A stretch of DNA of 64,000 nt from a virus (lineage: Duplodnaviria > Heunggongvirae > Uroviricota > Caudoviricetes): the IMG/VR virus record IMGVR_UViG_2511231131_000001; one strand, written 5' to 3'. Under the pieces are notes generated by a model. That model saw only the letters and a program-made list of their open reading frames with translations. It was not told where the DNA came from and searched no databases. Positions within the stretch are counted from its first letter, which is position 1; every line of letters starts with the position of its first letter. A program made the position numbers and the translations under genes. Below are positions 5,880 to 27,993 of the stretch, piece after piece.

Positions 5880-7309
5880 TCCTCCTCATACGAAATATTA
5901 AAGGTGGAGTTTTCTGTATCCAGATAAACGAAATCGTAAAAGCCGTTGGACTCATTCCACTCGACAAATTCCAGATAAAAGTCGCGGAAATAACCCAGCG
6001 TTTCGATAAATGCCCAAACGTCTTTTTTCTTGATTAGGATGTACTTGCCGACACGGTTCGGATCAAAGAAAGTTGAGTCACGCCCAAATTTTGTTTCCAG
6101 TGCCGACTTCAGCTCATCAGTCACGTTCTCAATGGTCAGGCTTGCCGATATCCGCCCAGTGATGGTGATCTTAAAGGGGAGTTTTCTGACCTCTTTATAC
6201 GAGAATTTCTTGTTCAACTCATTCGGCACCTTCTTAAAGGCAGCCAGGATCATTTCTTCAAGCTCTGACTGGCTTTTGTTTGGATGCCATCCTGAAATAA
6301 ATATCTTATTGATATTCCGAACATTATAAGCACCATCTAATTTCTCTTGCTGGCCTTCGCCCCATGCCTTTACCCAGGACAGTCCCGGGATGTTACGCAC
6401 CAGAAAATACGTATAGTCCCCGCCCCATACGACCTGATCATCATAGGCAAGGTAATATTGTGCACGATTACGTGTGATCTCCGTTGTTTCGGCATCGGTA
6501 CCTGCGGTTATGGGTGTCGTTGTCTTAACTGAAATCAAATTAGCTAAATTAGCCGCAGAATCGACAGGAGTCAGGTTTTGGCCAGCAACCAGGGTTATAT
6601 CTCCGTTGGTGCACCATACCTTAAGTGTAATGGTCGAGCCTTCTGGCGGTATTTGCCCAATTAGCCCATCACCGAATCGAACCCCCAACTGCTCGGATGG
6701 CTTATAAAACTCAACGTAGACCTGGCTTTTACTACCGGCTAACCGGAACATAGTGCTGGAAGACCACTGCGTGGTCTTACCATCGGTCGTCACGAATACT
6801 TCCAGCTTACAGCAGACAGCAGTGAGAGCCTTTGATAACACGACTTCCAGAAATTCTTTGGCTGCCGTAACGGTATATGTCACCTCCTGGATTTCCAACT
6901 GTGCCACTTCTACCGTACCGGTGCCGTCAACCAACCTGCATACATCCATAGTCATGTAAGGGTACTGGTCGTCAGATATTAAAGGCATGTTTTTGGGGAT
7001 TACCGCTGGGGCATCTTCACTTGTGGCGGTGATCTCAATCATCCCCGATGACGGTGTTGGCTTGGTACCAACGTAACTATTCGTTTCTGCCGCTGCCAGG
7101 ATAGAGGAACGCCGCGTCGCGGTCGATATAAAGCCTTCAGCCAGCGCCGCATCGGCATACTGAAAGCACCTGTAGACAATCTGGGTAATAAACAATGTCA
7201 GCATCGAGACAAATTGAGAGCCGACAAACTTCGACCAGAATGAATCTTTCTCGACAAGCTCTTCAAACTCTGCACGAATACTGTCTTTAGTCGGTGTTGT
7301 TTTACTCAT
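5876..7309 (-). CDS. baseplate J-like protein
   Basis: 477 aa; canonical position W-J-I-fibre in a contractile-tail module. Confidence 0.45.
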   Translation of the reverse strand: MSKTTPTKDSIRAEFEELVEKDSFWSKFVGSQFVSMLTLFITQIVYRCFQYADAALAEGFISTATRRSSILAAAETNSYVGTKPTPSSGMIEITATSEDAPAVIPKNMPLISDDQYPYMTMDVCRLVDGTGTVEVAQLEIQEVTYTVTAAKEFLEVVLSKALTAVCCKLEVFVTTDGKTTQWSSSTMFRLAGSKSQVYVEFYKPSEQLGVRFGDGLIGQIPPEGSTITLKVWCTNGDITLVAGQNLTPVDSAANLANLISVKTTTPITAGTDAETTEITRNRAQYYLAYDDQVVWGGDYTYFLVRNIPGLSWVKAWGEGQQEKLDGAYNVRNINKIFISGWHPNKSQSELEEMILAAFKKVPNELNKKFSYKEVRKLPFKITITGRISASLTIENVTDELKSALETKFGRDSTFFDPNRVGKYILIKKKDVWAFIETLGYFRDFYLEFVEWNESNGFYDFVYLDTENSTFNISYEEE

Positions 7310-7665: not shown

Positions 7666-10600
7666 TCAACTCTCGCGTAGTCATTCATCAACGGATCATC
7701 AATTGACAGTGGCACCGTGCGCATAACGCCCGGTTGAGGCGTGCTGACCTTTACGACAGTTCCCTGGCCTTTCGCCGAGTCTTTAGTGTGCTCTTCAATC
7801 CTGGCAAGCAATGAGGTCATCTGCGCAAACAGCCGCTTCGTTTCACCATCAAGTGAAACGGTATTATCAGCCAACTGCATTGTCGGCTTGGCACCGGAGC
7901 CGCCAAGGTCACTAATAACCTGTCCGTCTATCTGCATACGACCGGTTGGTTGCTGCAAATCGTTGGCGGCAGTCGTCACCTGGGACGTGGAGGCTGGTTC
8001 AGGCGCATTATTTTTCCGCATCCCCGGCGAGTTGCGGAGTTTATCAAATAGTCCATCAATCCCCATTTGTGCGCCGAGTTGGTCAAAGTAACTTGAGTTG
8101 CTGGCCACCGGACGCGCCTCTTCAACTGGCATCGGAGTATCAACATACACATTGCCAGCTGCTGTTGCGGTCCCCTTCCCTCGTGCACGTTCTTCGAGCG
8201 TTCCCTGAACGACTTCCCGACGCATACCCCGGCCATTCATGAATTTGTTGACCAGATCGTTAACGCCAACAGCATTGCCAATTTTGTCTACCAGACCGCC
8301 TTTCTCAAACGGGCTATCACCAGGGGTAAACGCCAGGCCAGTAGACTGATCGATAACAGCGTTATCAGGCAGTGGTCCCCTCACTCCATATTGCGCCCCA
8401 CCCTGTGCTCCTGCTCCAGGTGTATAGATTTCACCACCTAAATAGCGAGCACGATGAGTATTGACCTTGATCGCGTACTCACGGTTTTCTTTCGATAAGT
8501 CACCTGTGCCTTTTTTCCACTTATTGATAGTGCCAAACCCAGCATTATATGCAGTGATGGCCTCGTTTAAGTCTCCATTGGCTTGCTTCAGATATTTGCT
8601 CATGAGAAGAGCCGCAGCTTCTGCCGATTTCACAGGATCAAACGATTCACCTTCAGCTAAGCCAGTCTCTTCACGAGCAATCCCCGTGAACTGAAACATC
8701 CCCAGAGCACCGGTTTGGGATTTTGCATACGGATTACCACCAGATTCAGTTGCAGCAATCGCGTAAAGAGTGCCTTCTGGAAGACCGTATTTATTCTCTA
8801 GTTCGGCAAAATACGGAGCCAACTTATCGAGATTTGCCTTACCTTCAGCGCCAAGACTTCCGACTTTTACATCCAAGTTGCCATTGTTGTAGGTATCCGC
8901 AGCTTTCTGAATGTCATTCCTGGTGCCAGTGGTATTAAGCGACGATGATGACGAGCTATTTTGACCAATAGCTTTATCAATTTTCTGCAACGCGCTATTG
9001 CCCGTTTCTACGGCATTTGCATTGATAATCTGATTAGCAGTTTCTTTAACTGTTTTATTGCTATCTTTCGCCGTGTCCAGTGCCGCATTTATCACGCGGG
9101 TAACAATATTAGTCTGTTTGGCATCGGATTCAGTTTTAGAATCAGATGTCTCCTGGTGGCTATTAACCGGAGCTTTTAACTCTGGAGTGATTTCTTTCGC
9201 ATTAGCCTCGCCGATCGGATTGGGTATTTTTGATACAATCATTGCCGCAGGGGTATTTTTAACGGCATCAACCGCTGCATCTAATGCTTTACCTGGTAAA
9301 TTTTTAACCCCATCCCAAATATTACCAGCCGCCTCTTTAATGTGTTTCCCTGGGTTCTTAATGAAATCAATTGCACTATCAATTGCATCACTGAAAACCT
9401 GTTTCAGGTTATCGACAGTAAAGAAGTCTTTGATGGCATCCAGCTTTTCAAGCAGCTTATTAGATGTATCGCTAAACCATGCTGAAACAGCATCACCAAT
9501 CTTTGCTGTGTAATCATCGAACTTGGTAGAAATGGTGTCGCCAAGGTTAGAAATATATGTTTCTAAGTTGGTAATCCCACTATCAATGGCATGGGCAATA
9601 CTTTCCGTCGAAAATGATTGCAACATATTGCCGATATCCTCAAATCCAAGTGATTTGAGAACCTCACCAATGGCGCTGCTAATACCAGATACCAGTCCCC
9701 CCATATCAAGAATATTAGCTAACGTATAAGCGGCTTTTTGCTGGAATGATGGATCTTGTCCTGATTTAAGCCCAAACGCTCGACGTTGCGCTTCTGTATC
9801 ATTCCAACCGGTTACCGCATCATAAATACCTCCAACCACTGTGCCGACTAGGGGAATTGCGCGTAACGCCCCTTTACCAACTGCCTTTAATCCAAGTTTA
9901 CCTGCTGCCCGGGCAGCCAAATCTCCGCCTTCATGGGCGAGAGTCTTCTTACCACCACCGCGTAGCATTCCTACAAGTTTCTTTGCCCCCAGAGCGCCAA
10001 AAGCGAGTGCTCCAGCTTTTTTCAGCATGCCACGCCCCATTAACAACGACGCGACGCCACCGGCCCCCTTCCCTAACAGGCTAAATAGTTTGGACAGCAA
10101 GCCGCCCTTCTTTTTCCCGGTGTTTTTGGCTATCTGATCAAGGGCGCTGAGAATCTTGTCATTGCCCTCTTTAATTTCGCTGGTCTGCTCCTGAAGTTCC
10201 TGAACCGTCCGTTTTTGGGTGTTAACCTGAACGACATCGGCACTATTTTGCGATTTACGCCTAAAAAAACCTTTTCTACGGCTGTTATCGTCATTGCCAC
10301 GAATCACATCGGCAATAGACTTTCTGGCACCATTAAGCGATCCGCCAACTTCTTTTGATATCCCGCCAAGCTCCTTCCCTGCTGCCCACAATGGACCTGC
10401 AACGGCATAACCTAACGCATCGACAGCACGAGTCTCTGAAGGGTTACCTATGCCTTCAGCTACTTTTGACAGTTTTTTTAATAAACCTGATTCAGCATTT
10501 AGACGCTCATCATCCTCTTTTCGCCTGGCCTTTTCTGCTCGTTCAGCACGGGCATCTTCCGCTGCGGCCTTACTCCCTGACTTTCCAATAAAACGACCAC

Positions 10601-22576: not shown

Positions 22577-24304
22577 TTACTCAGAGTCACCGGCATCAAT
22601 CGTGTCGCCGCTAATGAAGTTAAGCCCGCCTTTTTTGGCCATTGTCAGCGTTACACGAGTGAAGTAATCAGCGCCGTTGCGTGGGTGCATATCGTTGATA
22701 GCCGAACCCCACAGCGTGGTACGGTTGACCAGCGCCGGAGTGGTCGGATGCTGGAACGGGATGGCCGGGACAGCATCACCAGTCACGAAGCCTGCTTTAC
22801 CCGGATTTTCATCACGGACGTAGCACAGCACATCCATCGAGCTGAACTGAATGTTCTCTGTCGTTAAGTTCTTACAAATACCAGCAGGTACTTCGTACAC
22901 TTTCACGTTACCGAACAGGGTACCGATGTAGTGAACATACGGAGTCTGGATATAGTCTTCGGCTGGCTGGAAGAAATCCTTCGGCAACTGTTTGAAGAAA
23001 GATGCTGCATCAGCACCAGCAAACATCCCCATCGCACCAGAAGATTTAACGCGCTCAATAATGTCGCGATATACAGTCTGGAATTTGCCACGAATGATGG
23101 TTGCCCATACATCAAAGGACTGGTTAACCGGCAGAGCGATGTCAAAGGTGTCGGTCGCAAGAGTACGCCAGATCATGATGCGAAGACGCAGCATATCCTG
23201 TTCATGAGACAGGTATTCCTTCAGGGTGCGGAACTGTAGGGAACCCAGGTCCAGACCAAATTCACGCTGTGCTTCATACGCCGCCTGTACCGTGTGCTCA
23301 GCCGCGATAACGAACTGGCTTGGGAACAGGGTGTATTTCTTCATTTCGTGGTTGATCAGCGGGATCAGCTCAGGAGCGGCTTCAATATTGATTTCCGTCT
23401 CAATTGCGATCTCAGTGCCTTTATCCGGCGCTTTGGAGAACGACAGGGCAATCTGACCAATGTTGTAGTTCAGAGAGCAGGTAACAGTGATTTGCTCACC
23501 AGCAGCATTAGTAAACGAGTGAAGTAGGCTGCCGGAACCGTTATCAACAACAGACTTAATACGGTTAACGTAGATATTAGTGCGACCTTTTCGGATTGGT
23601 ACATTCTGGCCTTCGAAGTCTTCCATCTTGAAGGTTGCGGTTTTGCTGGTGCCATCGGAGCTTGCCACCAGCACATAGCGGCGGCGTAACTGGCTGTACA
23701 CACCGACGGATTGCATGTCCAGAACATCACCAGCAGCATAAGAACCAAAAGAGGAACCTGCCACGTTAAAGACTTCATAGATGTCGGACTGGTCACGCGT
23801 AACCGGAATGAAGGTACACGCATCAGCGGTAGCTGCCCCCAACTGAACAGGCAGGATCATCGCGAGGAATAAAGGCAGACGCATAACACCGTCAGAAACG
23901 CTCATCATCTCTGCTGCGACGGATTCCAGCATCGCTTTATTAGTGGCATCCATGCTATTGCGGGTGGACTCAATCAGGCAGTTTTCCAGCGTCTGGTGGC
24001 AGGAGGCCAGAATTTCCGGACGCGGCATAGATTTATGTGCTGCGGCGTAGTCAGCCAGTGCACTTGCCCACGCTGTAGCGATTTGAGCGGTGGCATTATC
24101 AGAGATACCCGCAAAAACCGGGTCTTTACGTGCAGCTTCAAGGATAGATGCGGCACGCGCGGCATCATCTTTAATGAATTGGTTATCAGTACCGAACTGC
24201 GCAGTGCTTGCCCAGCCAAGCACAGCTTTAGAGCGTTTTGCGATATCTGCAATACGATTCTGGTATTCGCGTAAGTTACTCAATTTACTCTTCCTTAAAC
24301 ACAA
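22577..24304 (-). CDS. major capsid-like protein (P1 gene 23 position)
   Basis: 575 aa; synteny and size only. Confidence 0.4.
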   Translation of the reverse strand: MCLRKSKLSNLREYQNRIADIAKRSKAVLGWASTAQFGTDNQFIKDDAARAASILEAARKDPVFAGISDNATAQIATAWASALADYAAAHKSMPRPEILASCHQTLENCLIESTRNSMDATNKAMLESVAAEMMSVSDGVMRLPLFLAMILPVQLGAATADACTFIPVTRDQSDIYEVFNVAGSSFGSYAAGDVLDMQSVGVYSQLRRRYVLVASSDGTSKTATFKMEDFEGQNVPIRKGRTNIYVNRIKSVVDNGSGSLLHSFTNAAGEQITVTCSLNYNIGQIALSFSKAPDKGTEIAIETEINIEAAPELIPLINHEMKKYTLFPSQFVIAAEHTVQAAYEAQREFGLDLGSLQFRTLKEYLSHEQDMLRLRIMIWRTLATDTFDIALPVNQSFDVWATIIRGKFQTVYRDIIERVKSSGAMGMFAGADAASFFKQLPKDFFQPAEDYIQTPYVHYIGTLFGNVKVYEVPAGICKNLTTENIQFSSMDVLCYVRDENPGKAGFVTGDAVPAIPFQHPTTPALVNRTTLWGSAINDMHPRNGADYFTRVTLTMAKKGGLNFISGDTIDAGDSE

Positions 24305-24419
24305 GGCACTTGTGTGAATCCCTTTTCGGAAGAGATTTTATTGAAAGTCACTTGTTGACTTTCTCGTGACAAGCAATTTTTTTATTTTTTTCGGGAGTAG
24401 GGGAGGAAGGTAAAATCCA

Positions 24420-24505
24420 AGGTGAAATCGTGGCGATTTCACCTTGAAATTTTAGAGGGATTTACTTTAAAAACAGTAGGTTAATAGTGAAATTTGAATG
24501 GCGAA
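24420..24505. promoter_or_regulatory. parS: parS partition site
   Basis: GTGAAAT (boxA) and TGGCGA (boxB) motifs on both sides of an AT-rich core, immediately downstream of parB. Confidence 0.65.
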
Positions 24506-24508
24506 AGT

Positions 24509-25510
24509 TTAAGGCTTCGGCTTTTTATCGAGGCTCTTTCTAAGGATATGCCCAATCATCCTGTCGAGTTCTTCCTGTAACTCTTTTGAAAGTCGATTAA
24601 ACTCATAAGAAAATGCACGGCCTTTCACGCGCTTCCTTGCAAAGCGATCCTTGTCCTCAAATTTCCATAATTCAGTAACTACGGACTTATCTTTAGAACC
24701 TTTATCCGTGAGTAGTGAGGCTTCCTTTGTTATCAAGCGCAGGATTTTATTTTTAACTTCATCTTCGGCCATTTCTTCAATGGATAAGATGTCGTTTATT
24801 TCCGGGGATATGTTTTGAATAAGCTGATCAAACTCTAAATTCTTGTTCCCCATTTCGTCGCCAACAGCACAAAGCGTTTTGTAGTCCGAAAAGGTCAATT
24901 CCGACTGCACAGGGAAAAGGGCGACTAATTCTTCCGGAGCACTCGCTGCCTGGAGAGCACGCGTGACCTTCGCCTGAGATAGCCCTTCTTTGGCTGCAAT
25001 ATCCTTCTGACTCATCCCATCATTTTTCATTCGCATCAAACGCAGACCTATTTCTCGAATGCTGTGCTGCAATGCTGTCTGAACGTCTTTCGCTAAATTT
25101 TGCGCTTCCTGAACGCTGATCTCCTGGTCCGTGACTAAAACCCGCAACCCTACGTTCTCTAAGATGGCAGAAGCTCGACGCCGGGAACCATCCAAAATTT
25201 CAATTTTCCCTGTAGCCCGTCTAACACCTATTGCAGGGTAAAATTGCTGATGCTTAATAGTGCTTCGGATACTTTTTAATGATTTTGGCGTAAGAGATGC
25301 CTGGTCACGACCATTGTTATGCTGATCAACAAAGGTATCGCTTTCTACCTGATTCGGAGGTATTACCTCTTCAATAAATGTGGCCTGGCGACCTGTTGAT
25401 AACTTGAATACCTGCTCGACTCGATCGCCAGAGGCTGAAGAACTATCAAATCCGCTTAATATTGAAGGATTAAGGGTTCGCCCAATTGTTGGTCTGTTTT
25501 TCTTTGACAT
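24509..25510 (-). CDS. parB: ParB partition protein
   Basis: 333 aa; downstream of parA; adjacent parS. Confidence 0.8.
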   Translation of the reverse strand: MSKKNRPTIGRTLNPSILSGFDSSSASGDRVEQVFKLSTGRQATFIEEVIPPNQVESDTFVDQHNNGRDQASLTPKSLKSIRSTIKHQQFYPAIGVRRATGKIEILDGSRRRASAILENVGLRVLVTDQEISVQEAQNLAKDVQTALQHSIREIGLRLMRMKNDGMSQKDIAAKEGLSQAKVTRALQAASAPEELVALFPVQSELTFSDYKTLCAVGDEMGNKNLEFDQLIQNISPEINDILSIEEMAEDEVKNKILRLITKEASLLTDKGSKDKSVVTELWKFEDKDRFARKRVKGRAFSYEFNRLSKELQEELDRMIGHILRKSLDKKPKP

Positions 25511-25526
25511 GGGGGTTTCTTACTCC

Positions 25527-26723
25527 TCAGTTAGATCTGATAAATTCAATACGGTCAAAAACTGCTTTAGCAAAATCTTCCGCGGCAATTCGCGCGTTCT
25601 TCAATGCATCAGCACTACCAACATACGTTGCCGGGTTAGCTGAAATAACAGTGTCAAAAGACTCGCCGCAGCGTTCAAAACCGTCAAGGCGAGGGAGGAC
25701 GACATCGAGCATATCCCCACCGAACACTTCTTTAGCCAGGCTATGGCAATACTTATGATCTGCCTTGTTACTCAACTTGGACATAAAACCAATGTTAGTC
25801 GCAAGCTGGCACTCGCAGCCTTCATCCGAAATGAGTTTTACCAACTCAGGAAGGCGGGCAACGTATTTAAGCGATGAATGGAAATCGACAGTTGCTGGCG
25901 GCAGAGGTGTAAACAGTATATTGGCCGAGGCCAAAGCATTTTTCAGGAAGGCATCAAGGTGAGGACCACTATCAACGAGGATAAAGTCATAATCGCTCTT
26001 CAGCTTATCAATCACATTTTCTTTCAGGACAGCATGGATGTTCTGACCCGGTAGATGCTCATTGCACAGCTCTCTCCAATCGGATGCAATAAAGGCATCG
26101 TCAATCGACGCAGGCATAACGTCAACCCCAGGTACAACAGAAGGAACAATAAACTCCTCTAACAGCTCTTCACGGCTTACATTCTGCAACATAGCCTGTG
26201 CAGATGTTGCGTTTACGATACCAATAGAGTGTTTATGGCTTAAAAACATCGTCGCTGAAGATTGCGGATCAAGGTCAATAACCAGAATCCTTAAATCTTC
26301 CATCAGAAGATGAGGGTGGGCACGCATTGCATGCGCCAGAGAAACCGTCGATACAGTTTTTGACACACCGCCTTTAAGATTGGAGATGAAAATCACATAC
26401 GCTTCGCTGTAGCGATCCCGGTATTTTGGCACTCCGCGATGTTCATATATGTCAATGATGTTCTGAATTGACATCGCATATTTCATTGAAGAGCCAGCAG
26501 GGCGTTTATCGAAAACATAACCCTTTTCTTCCATTTCACTTACGGCATAGTCAACGTTCGCTCGAGTCAGTAGAGGCAATTTTGCCAGTGCCGCTTTCGC
26601 ATAGACCTGGTAAAACTCGTTCGCGTGTAGCTCATCCTTTTGCAACTGTACTTGTTCAGTCAGAACATTGAGCATTCTGTTTGCTCTTTGAGCAACCTTG
26701 TGAAGCTGGCTGGAATCACTCAT
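25527..26723 (-). CDS. parA: ParA partition ATPase
   Basis: 398 aa; Walker A NLKGGVSKT; N-terminal extension typical of type Ia ParA; matches recalled P1 ParA. Confidence 0.9.
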   Translation of the reverse strand: MSDSSQLHKVAQRANRMLNVLTEQVQLQKDELHANEFYQVYAKAALAKLPLLTRANVDYAVSEMEEKGYVFDKRPAGSSMKYAMSIQNIIDIYEHRGVPKYRDRYSEAYVIFISNLKGGVSKTVSTVSLAHAMRAHPHLLMEDLRILVIDLDPQSSATMFLSHKHSIGIVNATSAQAMLQNVSREELLEEFIVPSVVPGVDVMPASIDDAFIASDWRELCNEHLPGQNIHAVLKENVIDKLKSDYDFILVDSGPHLDAFLKNALASANILFTPLPPATVDFHSSLKYVARLPELVKLISDEGCECQLATNIGFMSKLSNKADHKYCHSLAKEVFGGDMLDVVLPRLDGFERCGESFDTVISANPATYVGSADALKNARIAAEDFAKAVFDRIEFIRSN

Positions 26724-26863
26724 CGAAAGTCATCCTTTATGCTGTATTTTTGAATTTACTTAAAAATGCTGCATAAAATAATAATGTATGCACAGATGCT
26801 TGTACATAGCATTCTCTGCATGTTTGGTTCATTTTGCACGATTGAGAGTTACAAGGAGGGCAC

Positions 26864-26890
26864 AAAAAAGCCCCGTTCAGGGGCATCAGT
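26864..26890 (-). terminator. intrinsic terminator for the 26892..27701 gene
   Basis: Minus strand GCCCC-TGAAC-GGGGC followed by TTTTTT. Confidence 0.6.
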
Positions 26891-26891
26891 G

Positions 26892-27701
26892 TTATTTGCT
26901 AAGAGCAGCGAATAATCGTTCGAAATCGATAGTATCTATAGCACGCGTAAGCGCCGGAAGTTCAGCCTCAAAGTACCCGTGTCGATCGTAAAAGAAGGGA
27001 CCGAAGAGCGAGGCATGTTGGATTCTACTTCGCCCCAGCCCGGACACACAGTTAAGCCCATTACCGGCTAAAAGGCTAAAAAACTTCTCTGGATTATCGT
27101 GGTAAAGCTGGGAATCAATGGTGGCGGTTAACTCTTCCATAGGGAAGCACACCCGCCCTGTCTCCCAGGGATATTTAGTCCGAAGCATAAACATTGCTTT
27201 CAGCAATTCACATTGAGCGCGGATCGCGTCCGGTTCATAGCCAGATATGGAGACATAAGCCACGTCCCTCATTCCTGCGTCATCTTTGAAAGTCACGATA
27301 GAAGTAACATCCAGCTCTTTTTCGAAAGAGCAAGCAGCATCTACTGGACGCTGAAGTAAATCATTCGACTTGATGCGCTCGAGAATCCCTCCCCACATAT
27401 CATTTAGATATTCGATATGAGCCAAAACCTTATCAAGACACTCTCGTGTAAACCATTCAGTATGCCCGCCACCGGCGCTTTTCTCCCACGGCGCATTCCA
27501 GGGGAAAAAGGTTGCGTGTAAAGCCCGCTCAAGATTAACCATTGCCAAACGCGTACCACGATAGACCCGTGAAAGCGCAAAATCGGGACTCACTTGTAGC
27601 CCTTTAAACCGTGCCAATGGACCACATGAAATGCCGATTTTAAAAGTATCTCCGTTCTCTGGCACCAGAACGTAGAGGTAGTGTTGTTTCTCTTCTTGCA
27701 T
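26892..27701 (-). CDS. GIY-YIG-like/T5orf172-domain protein with unknown C-terminal domain
   Basis: N-terminus HYLYVLVPENGDTFKIGIS...R......LE.ALH..F......GGHTEWF fits the T5orf172/MUG113 pattern (recalled); sits between parA and incA iterons. Confidence 0.5.
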   Translation of the reverse strand: MQEEKQHYLYVLVPENGDTFKIGISCGPLARFKGLQVSPDFALSRVYRGTRLAMVNLERALHATFFPWNAPWEKSAGGGHTEWFTRECLDKVLAHIEYLNDMWGGILERIKSNDLLQRPVDAACSFEKELDVTSIVTFKDDAGMRDVAYVSISGYEPDAIRAQCELLKAMFMLRTKYPWETGRVCFPMEELTATIDSQLYHDNPEKFFSLLAGNGLNCVSGLGRSRIQHASLFGPFFYDRHGYFEAELPALTRAIDTIDFERLFAALSK

Positions 27702-27729
27702 ATCAATACCACTGCTTGATGAGAGTCGC

Positions 27730-27991
27730 GCAAATGTTGACTATGCGCGAAGGTTAATGTGAATAGTTGACTATGCGCGATGTGACTACAGTCAAAAGTT
27801 GACTGTAGTCGATTTAACTCCACCAAAGATCGACTATGTAAGATATTGTCGGGAGAAACGTTGACTATACGCGATGAAATGGGCCTAAAAGCCATCTCAA
27901 TAGCGACTTGCAGAATATTGACGCCAGCAAAAATCCACCAGCGTCAACGAATGTCGCCTATAGTCAACTTCTCGCTATCGCATATAGTCAA
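27730..27991. repeat. incA-like iteron array
   Basis: Multiple copies of GTTGACTATGCGCGA and its complement TCGC.TATAGTCAA downstream of repA. Confidence 0.65.
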
Positions 27992-27993
27992 TA

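What the first reader, a model, noticed from the sequence alone, without database searches (positions are those of the whole stretch)
26864..27730. GIY-YIG/T5orf172-like gene inserted between parA and the incA iterons: candidate accessory nuclease or defence gene
Canonical P1, as I recall it, has no gene between the incA iterons and the parA promoter. Here a 269-aa ORF with its own intrinsic terminator occupies that gap, co-oriented with repA. Its N-terminal 100 aa fits the T5orf172/MUG113 branch of GIY-YIG-like nucleases (YLYVLVPENGDTFKIGIS ... LERALH ... GGHTEWF); the C-terminal 170 aa has no motif I recognise. Single-gene cargo in a plasmid maintenance region is a typical place for anti-phage or plasmid-competition functions.
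Basis: partly seen in the sequence, partly recalled or inferred. Interest (0 to 1): 0.65.

Follow-up and report, generated by a model that had tools for sequence, protein, structure and literature searches.

The report
Nuclease gene beside swapped P1 replicon
The ORF is real and encodes a T5orf172 (GIY-YIG-type) nuclease, but it is not a one-off insertion: it is a fixed yet dispensable passenger of the alternative "p0111" replication cassette carried by hundreds of P1-like phage-plasmids, and its tail is tentatively predicted to fold like the DNA-binding domain of plasmid replication initiators, so it is probably a sequence-directed DNA cutter used in conflicts between mobile elements.

Summary
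The ORF exists (window 26892-27701, minus strand, 269 aa, own terminator). It passes Pfam's T5orf172 threshold and keeps the Arg and Glu that align with the catalytic residues of the ICP1 nuclease Odn.

It is not a simple insertion into P1. A 2.25-kb cassette (T5orf172 gene, iterons, a RepA 42% identical to P1 RepA, origin iterons) replaces P1's incA-repA-incC. This is the known p0111-type replicon. The gene accompanies it in about 97% of cases (about 400 PLSDB plasmids, 7.7% of complete E. coli genomes). It is absent from IncY-type P1 and from related replicons in other phage-plasmids.

RefSeq already labels it "GIY-YIG nuclease"; one paper calls it an unknown gene (gp57). No defence model matches.

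- The family is tiny: one divergent homologue (44% identity) at the same position.
- The C-terminal domain is a sequence orphan.
- One moderate-confidence AlphaFold model of that domain best matches WH1 domains of iteron-plasmid initiators (RepA, RepE, RctB). This gives an Odn-like architecture.
- Constraint is relaxed: pN/pS 0.33 against 0.01-0.07 for repA, parA and parB, with many independent knock-outs.

Best reading: an accessory, sequence-directed endonuclease acting on competing replicons or as a homing element. Target and activity are untested.

The parts
26826..29075 (.). 2.25-kb replicon cassette (p0111 type) that replaces P1's spacer, incA, repA and incC. The flanks are P1-homologous.
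   Evidence: blastn against P1: window 24000-26825 is 99.1% identical to P1 and 29076-31575 is 95.7% identical. Nothing alignable lies in between except a 59-nt patch inside repA. Megablast breakpoints fall at the same place in hundreds of plasmids.
26778..26806 (-). Promoter of the par operon (Ppar), the last P1-homologous feature before the cassette
   Evidence: Promoter-like site TGTACA-17-TATTAT. It maps onto the annotated Ppar of NC_005856 through the alignment.
26860..26884 (-). Intrinsic terminator of the T5orf172 gene. It separates the gene from Ppar.
   Evidence: Stem of 5 G-C pairs, 5-nt loop, then TTTTTTGTGC.
26892..27701 (-). CDS of 269 aa: T5orf172 nuclease with an orphan C-terminal domain (PHROG 2876; RefSeq 'GIY-YIG nuclease family protein')
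   Evidence: ORF. Full-length PHROG 2876 match, E 2e-194. Annotation in RefSeq records.
27447..27680 (-). N-terminal T5orf172 (GIY-YIG superfamily) catalytic domain, residues 8-85, with Y10, R31 and E58
26895..27239 (-). C-terminal domain, about residues 155-269: a sequence orphan tentatively predicted as a winged-helix domain like WH1 of Rep_3 iteron initiators
27732..27992 (.). Array of at least six iterons downstream of repA (the incA equivalent of this replicon), in two orientations. The last iteron ends 30 nt from the nuclease start codon.
   Evidence: Repeat families D2 and D5, consensus TCGCGTATAGTCAAC. Sequence read. The same layout occurs in the divergent locus L004.
27994..28878 (-). 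repA of the p0111-type replicon (294 aa, Rep_3 family, WH1 plus WH2)
   Evidence: 42% identical to P1 RepA. Pfam Rep3_C 27.3 bits and Rep3_N 22.0 bits. RefSeq annotates it as a RepB family initiator.
28957..29063 (.). Five origin-side iterons (the incC equivalent) spaced 21-22 bp apart. P1-homologous oriR sequence resumes at 29076.
   Evidence: Repeat families D1 and D3. Right breakpoint. P1 oriR annotation.

Best explanation
The gene encodes an accessory, sequence-directed DNA endonuclease. An N-terminal T5orf172 (GIY-YIG-type) catalytic domain is joined through a poorly conserved linker to a fast-evolving C-terminal targeting domain. That domain is tentatively predicted to be a winged helix of the kind found in iteron-plasmid initiators (Rep WH1).

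The gene travels as part of the p0111-type replicon cassette of P1-like phage-plasmids and is not needed for replication or partition. By analogy with ICP1 Odn and other T5orf172 nucleases, it most likely cuts non-self DNA of competing elements. A rival replicon or origin is the prime candidate. Cutting would eliminate the rival or, through recombinational repair, convert it.

Its 5' flank consists of RepA-binding iterons. Expression is therefore probably by read-through from repA or from a weak iteron-embedded promoter, and so coupled to RepA occupancy.

Shown here: the domain identity, retention of catalytic residues, cassette structure, tight linkage, narrow distribution, relaxed constraint and dispensability. 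Inferred: nuclease activity, the DNA-binding role of the C-terminal domain, the target, and the mode of expression.
For: - T5orf172 scores above Pfam's threshold.
- R31 aligns with the Odn arginine in the MAFFT alignment, and E58 aligns with Odn E180 in the BLASTP alignment. E180A abolishes Odn cleavage (PMC8263062). These residues are invariant in the 44%-identical homologue.
- The N-terminal model shows a GIY-YIG fold.
- Two structure-comparison methods rank Rep initiator WH1 domains highest for the C-terminal model. The same hit appeared with the independent full-length model.
- Identity to the homologue in L004 is 64% in the nuclease domain but 34% in the C-terminal domain, while RepA is 84%, ParA 89% and the iteron consensus is unchanged. 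This is the pattern expected of a specificity domain tracking a changing external target.
- The gene is dispensable: three different nonsense alleles, an IS200/IS605 insertion and several frameshift variants exist. pN/pS is 0.33, against 0.02 for repA, 0.01 for parA and 0.07 for parB. ICP1's second Odn-like gene, gp5, is likewise frameshifted in over half of isolates (PMC10448857).
- A related replicon (RepA 85% identical) works without the gene in other phage-plasmids.
- The gene lies at the edge of a recombination cassette, as T5orf172 genes do in phages (PMC10448857).
- The IncY and p0111 replicon types co-occur in 2 complete E. coli genomes, against 27.5 expected.
Against: - No activity, target or phenotype is known.
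- No sequence similarity to its own RepA, to P1 RepA or to any Rep family was found. Odn, by contrast, is recognisably similar to its target's RepA.
- WH1 is also the dimerisation domain of Rep proteins, so the domain could bind protein rather than DNA.
- The co-occurrence deficit is expected anyway from shared P1 immunity and a shared parS.
- No convincing promoter was found.
- No empty-site allele of the same cassette was found, so mobility is not demonstrated.
Confidence: 0.4

Rival explanations
1. It is a classical free-standing homing endonuclease gene. The enzyme cuts the nuclease-less allele (IncY-type P1) near the Ppar-incA spacer during co-residence or co-infection. Repair then copies the gene together with the adjoining replicon. 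The gene is purely selfish and now decays because it is fixed in its lineage.
For: The nuclease domain comes first, followed by a putative binding domain, as in I-TevI. The gene is intergenic between essential maintenance genes and has its own terminator. It lies about 65 nt from the left boundary of the exchanged cassette. It is fixed in the p0111 lineage and shows many independent inactivations, as expected late in the life cycle of a homing endonuclease gene.
Against: No presence/absence polymorphism exists within an otherwise identical locus. The 'empty' allele differs across 1.5-2.2 kb of non-homologous DNA. The protein lacks the CapR, DUF723 or DUF4397 zinc-finger domains found in 87% of T5orf172 homing endonucleases, and has no CxxC motif (PMC10448857). 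No homologue was found anywhere outside P1-like elements, which is unusual for a mobile homing endonuclease family.
Confidence: 0.2
2. It is a replication-control accessory. The Rep WH1-like domain binds RepA through the WH1 dimer interface, or binds the neighbouring iterons. It thereby modulates initiation, copy number or handcuffing, with the nuclease domain nicking or inactive.
For: The best structural matches include the dimeric, replication-inactive forms of RepA WH1 (1hkq) and RepE (2z9o). The gene abuts the iteron array in both divergent lineages, 28-30 nt from the last iteron, and is almost perfectly linked to this repA.
Against: Knock-out alleles are common in apparently stable plasmids. 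A replicon with 85%-identical RepA lacks the gene. The C-terminal domain is only 34% conserved while RepA (84%) and the iterons are conserved. The catalytic residues are strictly retained.
Confidence: 0.15
3. It is an anti-phage or anti-plasmid defence gene that benefits the host cell.
For: It is a single nuclease gene in a plasmid maintenance region of a prophage, and such elements often carry defence cargo. It evolves quickly.
Against: No PADLOC model matches and no NCBIfam model matches. The gene is not variable cargo in a hotspot but a fixed part of one cassette. Loss-of-function alleles are frequent. The family is confined to one element type.
Confidence: 0.1
4. It is a functionless relic inherited from the donor of the replicon cassette and is drifting towards loss.
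For: pN/pS is 0.33, with 3 nonsense variants among 45 alleles, plus frameshifts and an IS insertion.
Against: pN/pS is still well below 1. About 80% of alleles are intact. A lineage diverged to 44% identity keeps a full-length ORF with all catalytic residues at the same position.
Confidence: 0.1

Closest known systems
Odn (Gp88) of Vibrio phage ICP1, the origin-directed nuclease, and the Odn-like T5orf172+RepA_N proteins of ICP1 gp5 and coliphages Inny, Muut and Mt1B1_P17 (PMC8263062, PMC10448857)
   Same: Both have a T5orf172 catalytic domain with the same Arg and Glu. Both join it to a domain that resembles the DNA-binding domain of a replication initiator. Both are accessory genes in a mobile element, and both are often inactivated. 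Replicon-module swapping occurs in the same system.
   Different: The domain order is reversed, with the nuclease at the N-terminus here. The Rep-like domain is inferred from a predicted structure only and resembles Rep_3 WH1, not Pfam RepA_N. It has no detectable sequence similarity to any RepA. The gene is encoded next to the element's own replicon in a phage-plasmid, and its target is unknown.
Free-standing T5orf172 homing endonuclease genes of ICP1, T5 and other phages (PF10544; PMC10448857)
   Same: The Pfam family is the same. The gene is intergenic beside essential genes and lies at a boundary of genetic exchange.
   Different: There is no CapR, DUF723 or DUF4397 zinc-finger DNA-binding domain. 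No homing polymorphism was observed. The family is restricted to P1-like phage-plasmids.
GIY-YIG homing endonucleases I-TevI and the Seg proteins of phage T4
   Same: The order is an N-terminal catalytic domain, a linker and a C-terminal DNA-binding domain. The GIY-YIG superfamily fold is shared.
   Different: Sequence similarity is only at superfamily level. The binding domain is different. The gene is not in an intron and is not known to home.
Rep_3 iteron initiators (pPS10 RepA, F RepE, R6K pi, Vibrio RctB, MSBI1.176 Rep): the WH1 domain
   Different: There is no Pfam Rep3_N hit and no profile similarity. There is no WH2 domain. The domain is fused to a nuclease.
The p0111-type replicon of P1-like phage-plasmids (RCS47, SJ46, JL22), where the gene is 'gp57, unknown protein' (PMC9603915)
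   Same: It is the same gene and cassette, 98.5-99% identical.
   Different: The held literature gives no domain analysis or function. None of the P1-like phage-plasmid papers found mentions GIY-YIG.

Membership tests
T5orf172 (Pfam PF10544, GIY-YIG superfamily) | Profile match above the curated gathering score | tested here: met
   27.5 bits against a 20-bit cut-off, E 4.7e-6, residues 8-85, profile positions 2-87 of 101. PHROG 681 'endonuclease' E 5.5e-9.
T5orf172 (Pfam PF10544, GIY-YIG superfamily) | Catalytic Arg and Glu retained (Odn E180 equivalent), plus the first-strand Tyr | tested here: met
   Y10 and R31 align with the YLYV and Arg of Odn, and E58 aligns with Odn E180. These residues are invariant between the two family members.
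T5orf172 (Pfam PF10544, GIY-YIG superfamily) | GIY-YIG alpha/beta fold | tested here: inconclusive
T5orf172 (Pfam PF10544, GIY-YIG superfamily) | Endonuclease activity | not testable with these tools
   This needs purified protein and an E58A control.
Homing endonuclease gene | Presence/absence polymorphism at an otherwise conserved site, with a cleavable empty allele | tested here: inconclusive
   The gene is absent from IncY-type P1, but there the whole cassette differs. No p0111 cassette without the gene was seen: 388 of 399 and 402 of 415 junctions are contiguous.
Homing endonuclease gene | Zinc-finger DNA-binding module typical of T5orf172 homing endonucleases (CapR, DUF723 or DUF4397) | tested here: not met
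   No such Pfam hit at E up to 10 and no CxxC or CxC motif.
Homing endonuclease gene | Demonstrated mobility or co-conversion of flanking DNA | not testable with these tools
   This requires mixed-infection or co-residence crosses.
Odn-like origin-directed nuclease | T5orf172 domain fused to a replication-initiator DNA-binding domain | tested here: inconclusive
Odn-like origin-directed nuclease | Sequence similarity of the binding domain to the RepA of a target replicon | tested here: not met
   BLASTP against P1 RepA finds nothing. hhalign against a five-sequence RepA alignment gives probability 0.1. No Rep family appears in Pfam. An exhaustive phmmer search finds no Rep protein.
Odn-like origin-directed nuclease | Iteron-dependent cleavage of an origin | not testable with these tools
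   This requires in vitro nuclease assays.
Known anti-phage defence systems (PADLOC-DB 2.0) | Match to a model of a known or candidate defence protein | tested here: not met
   No family matched at E up to 1.
Rep_3 replication initiators | Pfam Rep3_N or Rep3_C match and a WH1-WH2 architecture | tested here: not met
   The C-terminal domains of both family members have no Rep3 hit. The neighbouring RepA, scanned in the same call, hits Rep3_C at 27.3 bits and Rep3_N at 22.0 bits.

The most novel reading that the evidence does not exclude
The protein is a replicon-linked, origin-directed nuclease. Its Rep-like winged-helix domain guides the T5orf172 nuclease to the iterons, or to the iteron-bound RepA, of the rival IncY-type P1 replicon. 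Cutting destroys the rival or, through repair from the flanking parA and oriR homology, converts it to the p0111 cassette. That would make it a replicon gene drive, and it would help explain why the two replicon types of P1-like phage-plasmids almost never share a cell.
Probability: 0.15. Interest if true: 0.8.

Novelty: new variant of a known kind. Interest (0 to 1): 0.5.

Why it matters
P1-like phage-plasmids occur in roughly one in seven complete E. coli genomes and spread ESBL and other resistance genes. They come in two replicon types whose origin and mutual exclusion are unexplained. If the nuclease that always accompanies one type targets competing replicons, it would be the first Odn-like origin-directed nuclease encoded by a plasmid replicon itself. 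It would give a concrete mechanism for replicon replacement and exclusion among phage-plasmids. It would also add a natural nuclease with a Rep-type recognition domain. The hypothesis can be tested directly with mini-P1 plasmids that already exist as cloning vectors. If instead the gene is only a decaying homing endonuclease, the finding is a routine annotation refinement.

Tried and rejected
- Simple insertion into P1: rejected. The flanking iterons and repA are also replaced.
- Known defence system: no PADLOC or NCBIfam hit.
- Wider family: two word-indexed searches of 5.8 billion proteins, an exhaustive phmmer search of the C-terminal domain against 1.84 billion representatives, one scan of 185,579 species genomes and one IMG/VR scan gave only near-identical copies, fragments and one 44%-identical homologue.
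- Recent chimera with a RepA, as in Odn: no sequence or profile similarity to its own RepA or to P1 RepA.
- PDB sequence searches with the protein and with a profile: nothing.
- Full-length AlphaFold model: too poor (pLDDT 49) to judge the C-terminal domain.
- The afdb50 fold library was unavailable.
- Zinc-finger DNA-binding module of T5orf172 homing endonucleases: absent.
- Own sigma-70 promoter: none convincing in the iteron region. Iteron-embedded -10/-35-like hexamers have 19-nt spacers (my reading).
- Base composition: unremarkable.
- pSvP1 (MN510446), reported to have '2 orfs inserted between repA and parA' and possibly a split allele of this gene, is not in the collections.

Full report
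**Observation.** It is followed after 8 nt by a G+C-rich hairpin and a T-run at 26884-26860. On the minus strand the order is: origin iterons, repA, a second iteron array, this ORF, its terminator, the par promoter, parA, parB. Pfam T5orf172 matches residues 8-85 at 27.5 bits, above the 20-bit gathering score. MUG113 is below its threshold. The annotated P1 reference has no gene between Ppar and incA.

**What the locus is.** The window is a P1-like phage-plasmid of the RCS47/SJ46/JL22 group (98.7-99% identity over 4.6 kb).
- Against P1 itself, homology is 99.1% up to window 26825, just past Ppar, and resumes at 29076 at 95.7%.
- The 2250 bp in between replace 1491 bp of P1: the spacer, the nine incA iterons, repA and the five incC iterons. 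The DnaA-box and GATC part of oriR is retained.
- The RepA encoded here is only 42% identical to P1 RepA, and the iterons differ (consensus TCGCGTATAGTCAAC).
- This is the p0111 replicon type, which the literature contrasts with IncY. [quoted passage not shown]

The ORF is therefore one component of a swapped replicon cassette, not an insertion into the P1 gap.

**Distribution.**
- In PLSDB, 401 records encode the protein (all at least 90% identical), 399 carry this repA, and 388 carry the contiguous parA-ORF-iteron-repA junction. About 150 further records match only the parA side and are IncY-type.
- In 5426 complete E. coli genomes, 415 carry this repA and 402 carry the contiguous cassette.
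- Larger 'IncHI1B' or conjugative records that hold the gene contain the same P1-derived neighbourhood.
- Other phage-plasmids (rep_cluster_2164) have a RepA 85% identical to the window's but no such gene.

The gene is thus tightly linked to the cassette within P1-like elements, but the replicon type does not require it.

**Size of the family.** Two word-indexed searches of 5.8 billion proteins, an exhaustive phmmer search of residues 101-269 against 1.84 billion representatives, a scan of 185,579 species genomes and an IMG/VR scan were run. They recovered only near-identical copies, truncated fragments and one divergent homologue, P0004 (44% identity). P0004 lies on a 95.7-kb P1-like contig in the same position, between the repA iterons and parA. 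Its annotated N-terminal 41 residues are a translated iteron array, and the real start aligns with M1. In that element RepA is 84% identical, ParA 89% and ParB 67%, and the iteron consensus is unchanged. The nuclease is 64% identical in residues 1-105, 24% in the linker and 34% in residues 155-269.

**C-terminal domain.** At the sequence level it is an orphan.
- There is no Pfam hit at E up to 10 and no PDB hit with the sequence or a profile.
- There is no zinc-finger motif of the kind carried by 87% of T5orf172 homing endonucleases (PMC10448857).
- BLASTP and hhalign find no similarity to RepA proteins.

A second AlphaFold run on residues 96-269 gave one model with pLDDT 70.5 and pTM 0.66. 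The other four models were near 40.
- Foldseek independently puts MSBI1.176 WH1 first (E 7.7e-3, probability 0.97). The rest of its list is dominated by RepE54, RepA and RctB, although TM-scores are only 0.3-0.43.
- The same 6h24 hit appeared with the full-length model.

I regard a Rep-WH1-like winged helix as a lead with moderate support, not as established.

**Selection and dispensability.**
- Among 45 alleles the gene has 32 synonymous, 36 non-synonymous and 3 nonsense variants, giving pN/pS 0.33. The same calculation gives 0.02 for repA, 0.01 for parA, 0.07 for parB and 0.15 for upfA.
- Independent knock-outs include stops at codons 68, 112 (five loci; 151- and 229-member protein clusters correspond to the two halves) and 228 (phage SJ46). 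There are also at least four different frameshift products and an IS200/IS605 insertion after codon ~98.
- Even so, about 80% of alleles are intact, and a lineage diverged to 44% identity keeps a full-length ORF.

This pattern fits an accessory gene under weak or episodic selection. The authors of PMC10448857 draw the same inference for the often-frameshifted Odn-like gp5 of ICP1.

**Expression (inference).** The start codon is 30 nt from the last iteron here and 28 nt in L004. There is no room for a separate promoter, and no good sigma-70 match was found. Transcription probably reads through from repA or starts at weak iteron-embedded hexamers, and would then depend on RepA occupancy. The terminator insulates Ppar.

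**Mechanism.** The best-supported reading is a sequence-directed endonuclease with a T5orf172 catalytic domain and a rapidly diverging targeting domain. It is an accessory passenger of the replicon cassette and acts on non-self DNA of competing elements.

The closest experimentally characterised analogue is Odn, which joins T5orf172 to an initiator DNA-binding domain and cuts a rival's iterons. That arrangement evolved repeatedly, and it coincides with replicon-module swapping in the targets (PMC8263062; PMC10448857). The differences here are the reversed domain order, a Rep_3-WH1-like rather than RepA_N domain, and no sequence similarity to any RepA.

The rivals are a classical homing endonuclease, a replication-control partner acting through WH1-RepA or iteron contacts, a host-protective defence gene, and a relic. 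Their evidence is listed in the corresponding fields.

**Co-occurrence.** IncY repA is in 359 genomes and p0111 repA in 415, with a union of 772. Only 2 genomes therefore carry both, against 27.5 expected under independence (Poisson P about 5e-10). This is compatible with active exclusion. However, it is also expected from shared P1 immunity and a shared parS, so it does not discriminate between the hypotheses.

**Novelty.** The gene is already annotated ('GIY-YIG nuclease family protein', 'T5orf172 domain-containing protein', PHROG 2876; one record mislabels it 'terminase small subunit'). Its presence in the p0111 cassette is published. In the searchable library, no P1-like phage-plasmid paper mentions GIY-YIG, and no paper describes an origin-directed nuclease in a plasmid replicon. 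New here are the cassette-level analysis, the evidence of dispensability and relaxed constraint, the extreme narrowness of the family, and the tentative Rep-WH1-like fold. Together these make it a candidate new variant of the Odn-type nucleases.

**Caveats.**
- The key structural inference depends on one AlphaFold model from a very shallow alignment.
- pN/pS comes from closely related alleles, and some loci are clonal.
- Counts from PLSDB and RefSeq are affected by sampling of clinical and veterinary E. coli.
- No function has been tested.

Noticed in passing
window 27994-28878 (p0111 repA), compared with P1 repA (L001 6882-7742): The two replicon types of P1-like phage-plasmids co-occur in only 2 of 5426 complete E. 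coli genomes: 415 and 359 carriers, union 772, 27.5 expected if independent. The two co-resident genomes could not be identified, so the state of their nuclease allele is unknown.
   Followed up: partly
L005 (CP042620.1) and L006 (NZ_CP085065.1), repA at about 6000-6950: Phage-plasmids that are not P1-like (rep_cluster_2164, with tail genes next to repA) carry a RepA 85% identical in protein (77% in DNA) to the window's, without the nuclease gene. The replicon module seems to be shared between two phage-plasmid families.
   Followed up: partly
L001 6427-6598 (P1 Ppar-incA spacer); L007 (NZ_CP031351.1): IncY repA is joined to two different par operons, and the breakpoint lies exactly at incA iteron 1. 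The p0111 cassette, in contrast, is essentially always joined to P1-type parA. The par/rep junction is a recurrent recombination point.
   Followed up: partly
L049 5300-7000 (IMGVR_UViG_2645727563_000002): An IS200/IS605-family element (TnpB 389 aa, TnpA 141 aa) is inserted in the nuclease gene after codon ~98.
   Followed up: yes
window 27915-27950: An imperfect inverted repeat (TTGACGCCAGC ... ACCAGCGTCAA) lies between the two oppositely oriented iteron groups downstream of repA. Its first arm is conserved in L004 (about 7915-7935). It could be a repA terminator or a protein-binding site.
   Followed up: no
window 27366-27368 (codon 112) in loci L031-L035; protein clusters P0009 and P0003: A common allele carries a nonsense codon exactly at the boundary between the nuclease domain and the rest. 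Gene callers then predict two ORFs (111 aa and 168 aa). This may be the '2 orfs inserted between repA and parA' reported for pSvP1 (PMC6906374), which could not be checked.
   Followed up: partly
window 28879-28914: The mechanical ORF for repA starts at a TTG at 28914 (306 aa), whereas RefSeq records start it at the ATG at 28878 (294 aa). In phage record OR339795 the nuclease gene is labelled 'terminase small subunit', an evident annotation error.
   Followed up: no
protein P0005 (197 aa, E. coli plasmid, 108-kb contig): In one plasmid, residues ~107-223 of the protein are fused behind an unrelated 79-aa N-terminus. This indicates a rearrangement at the domain boundary.
   Followed up: no
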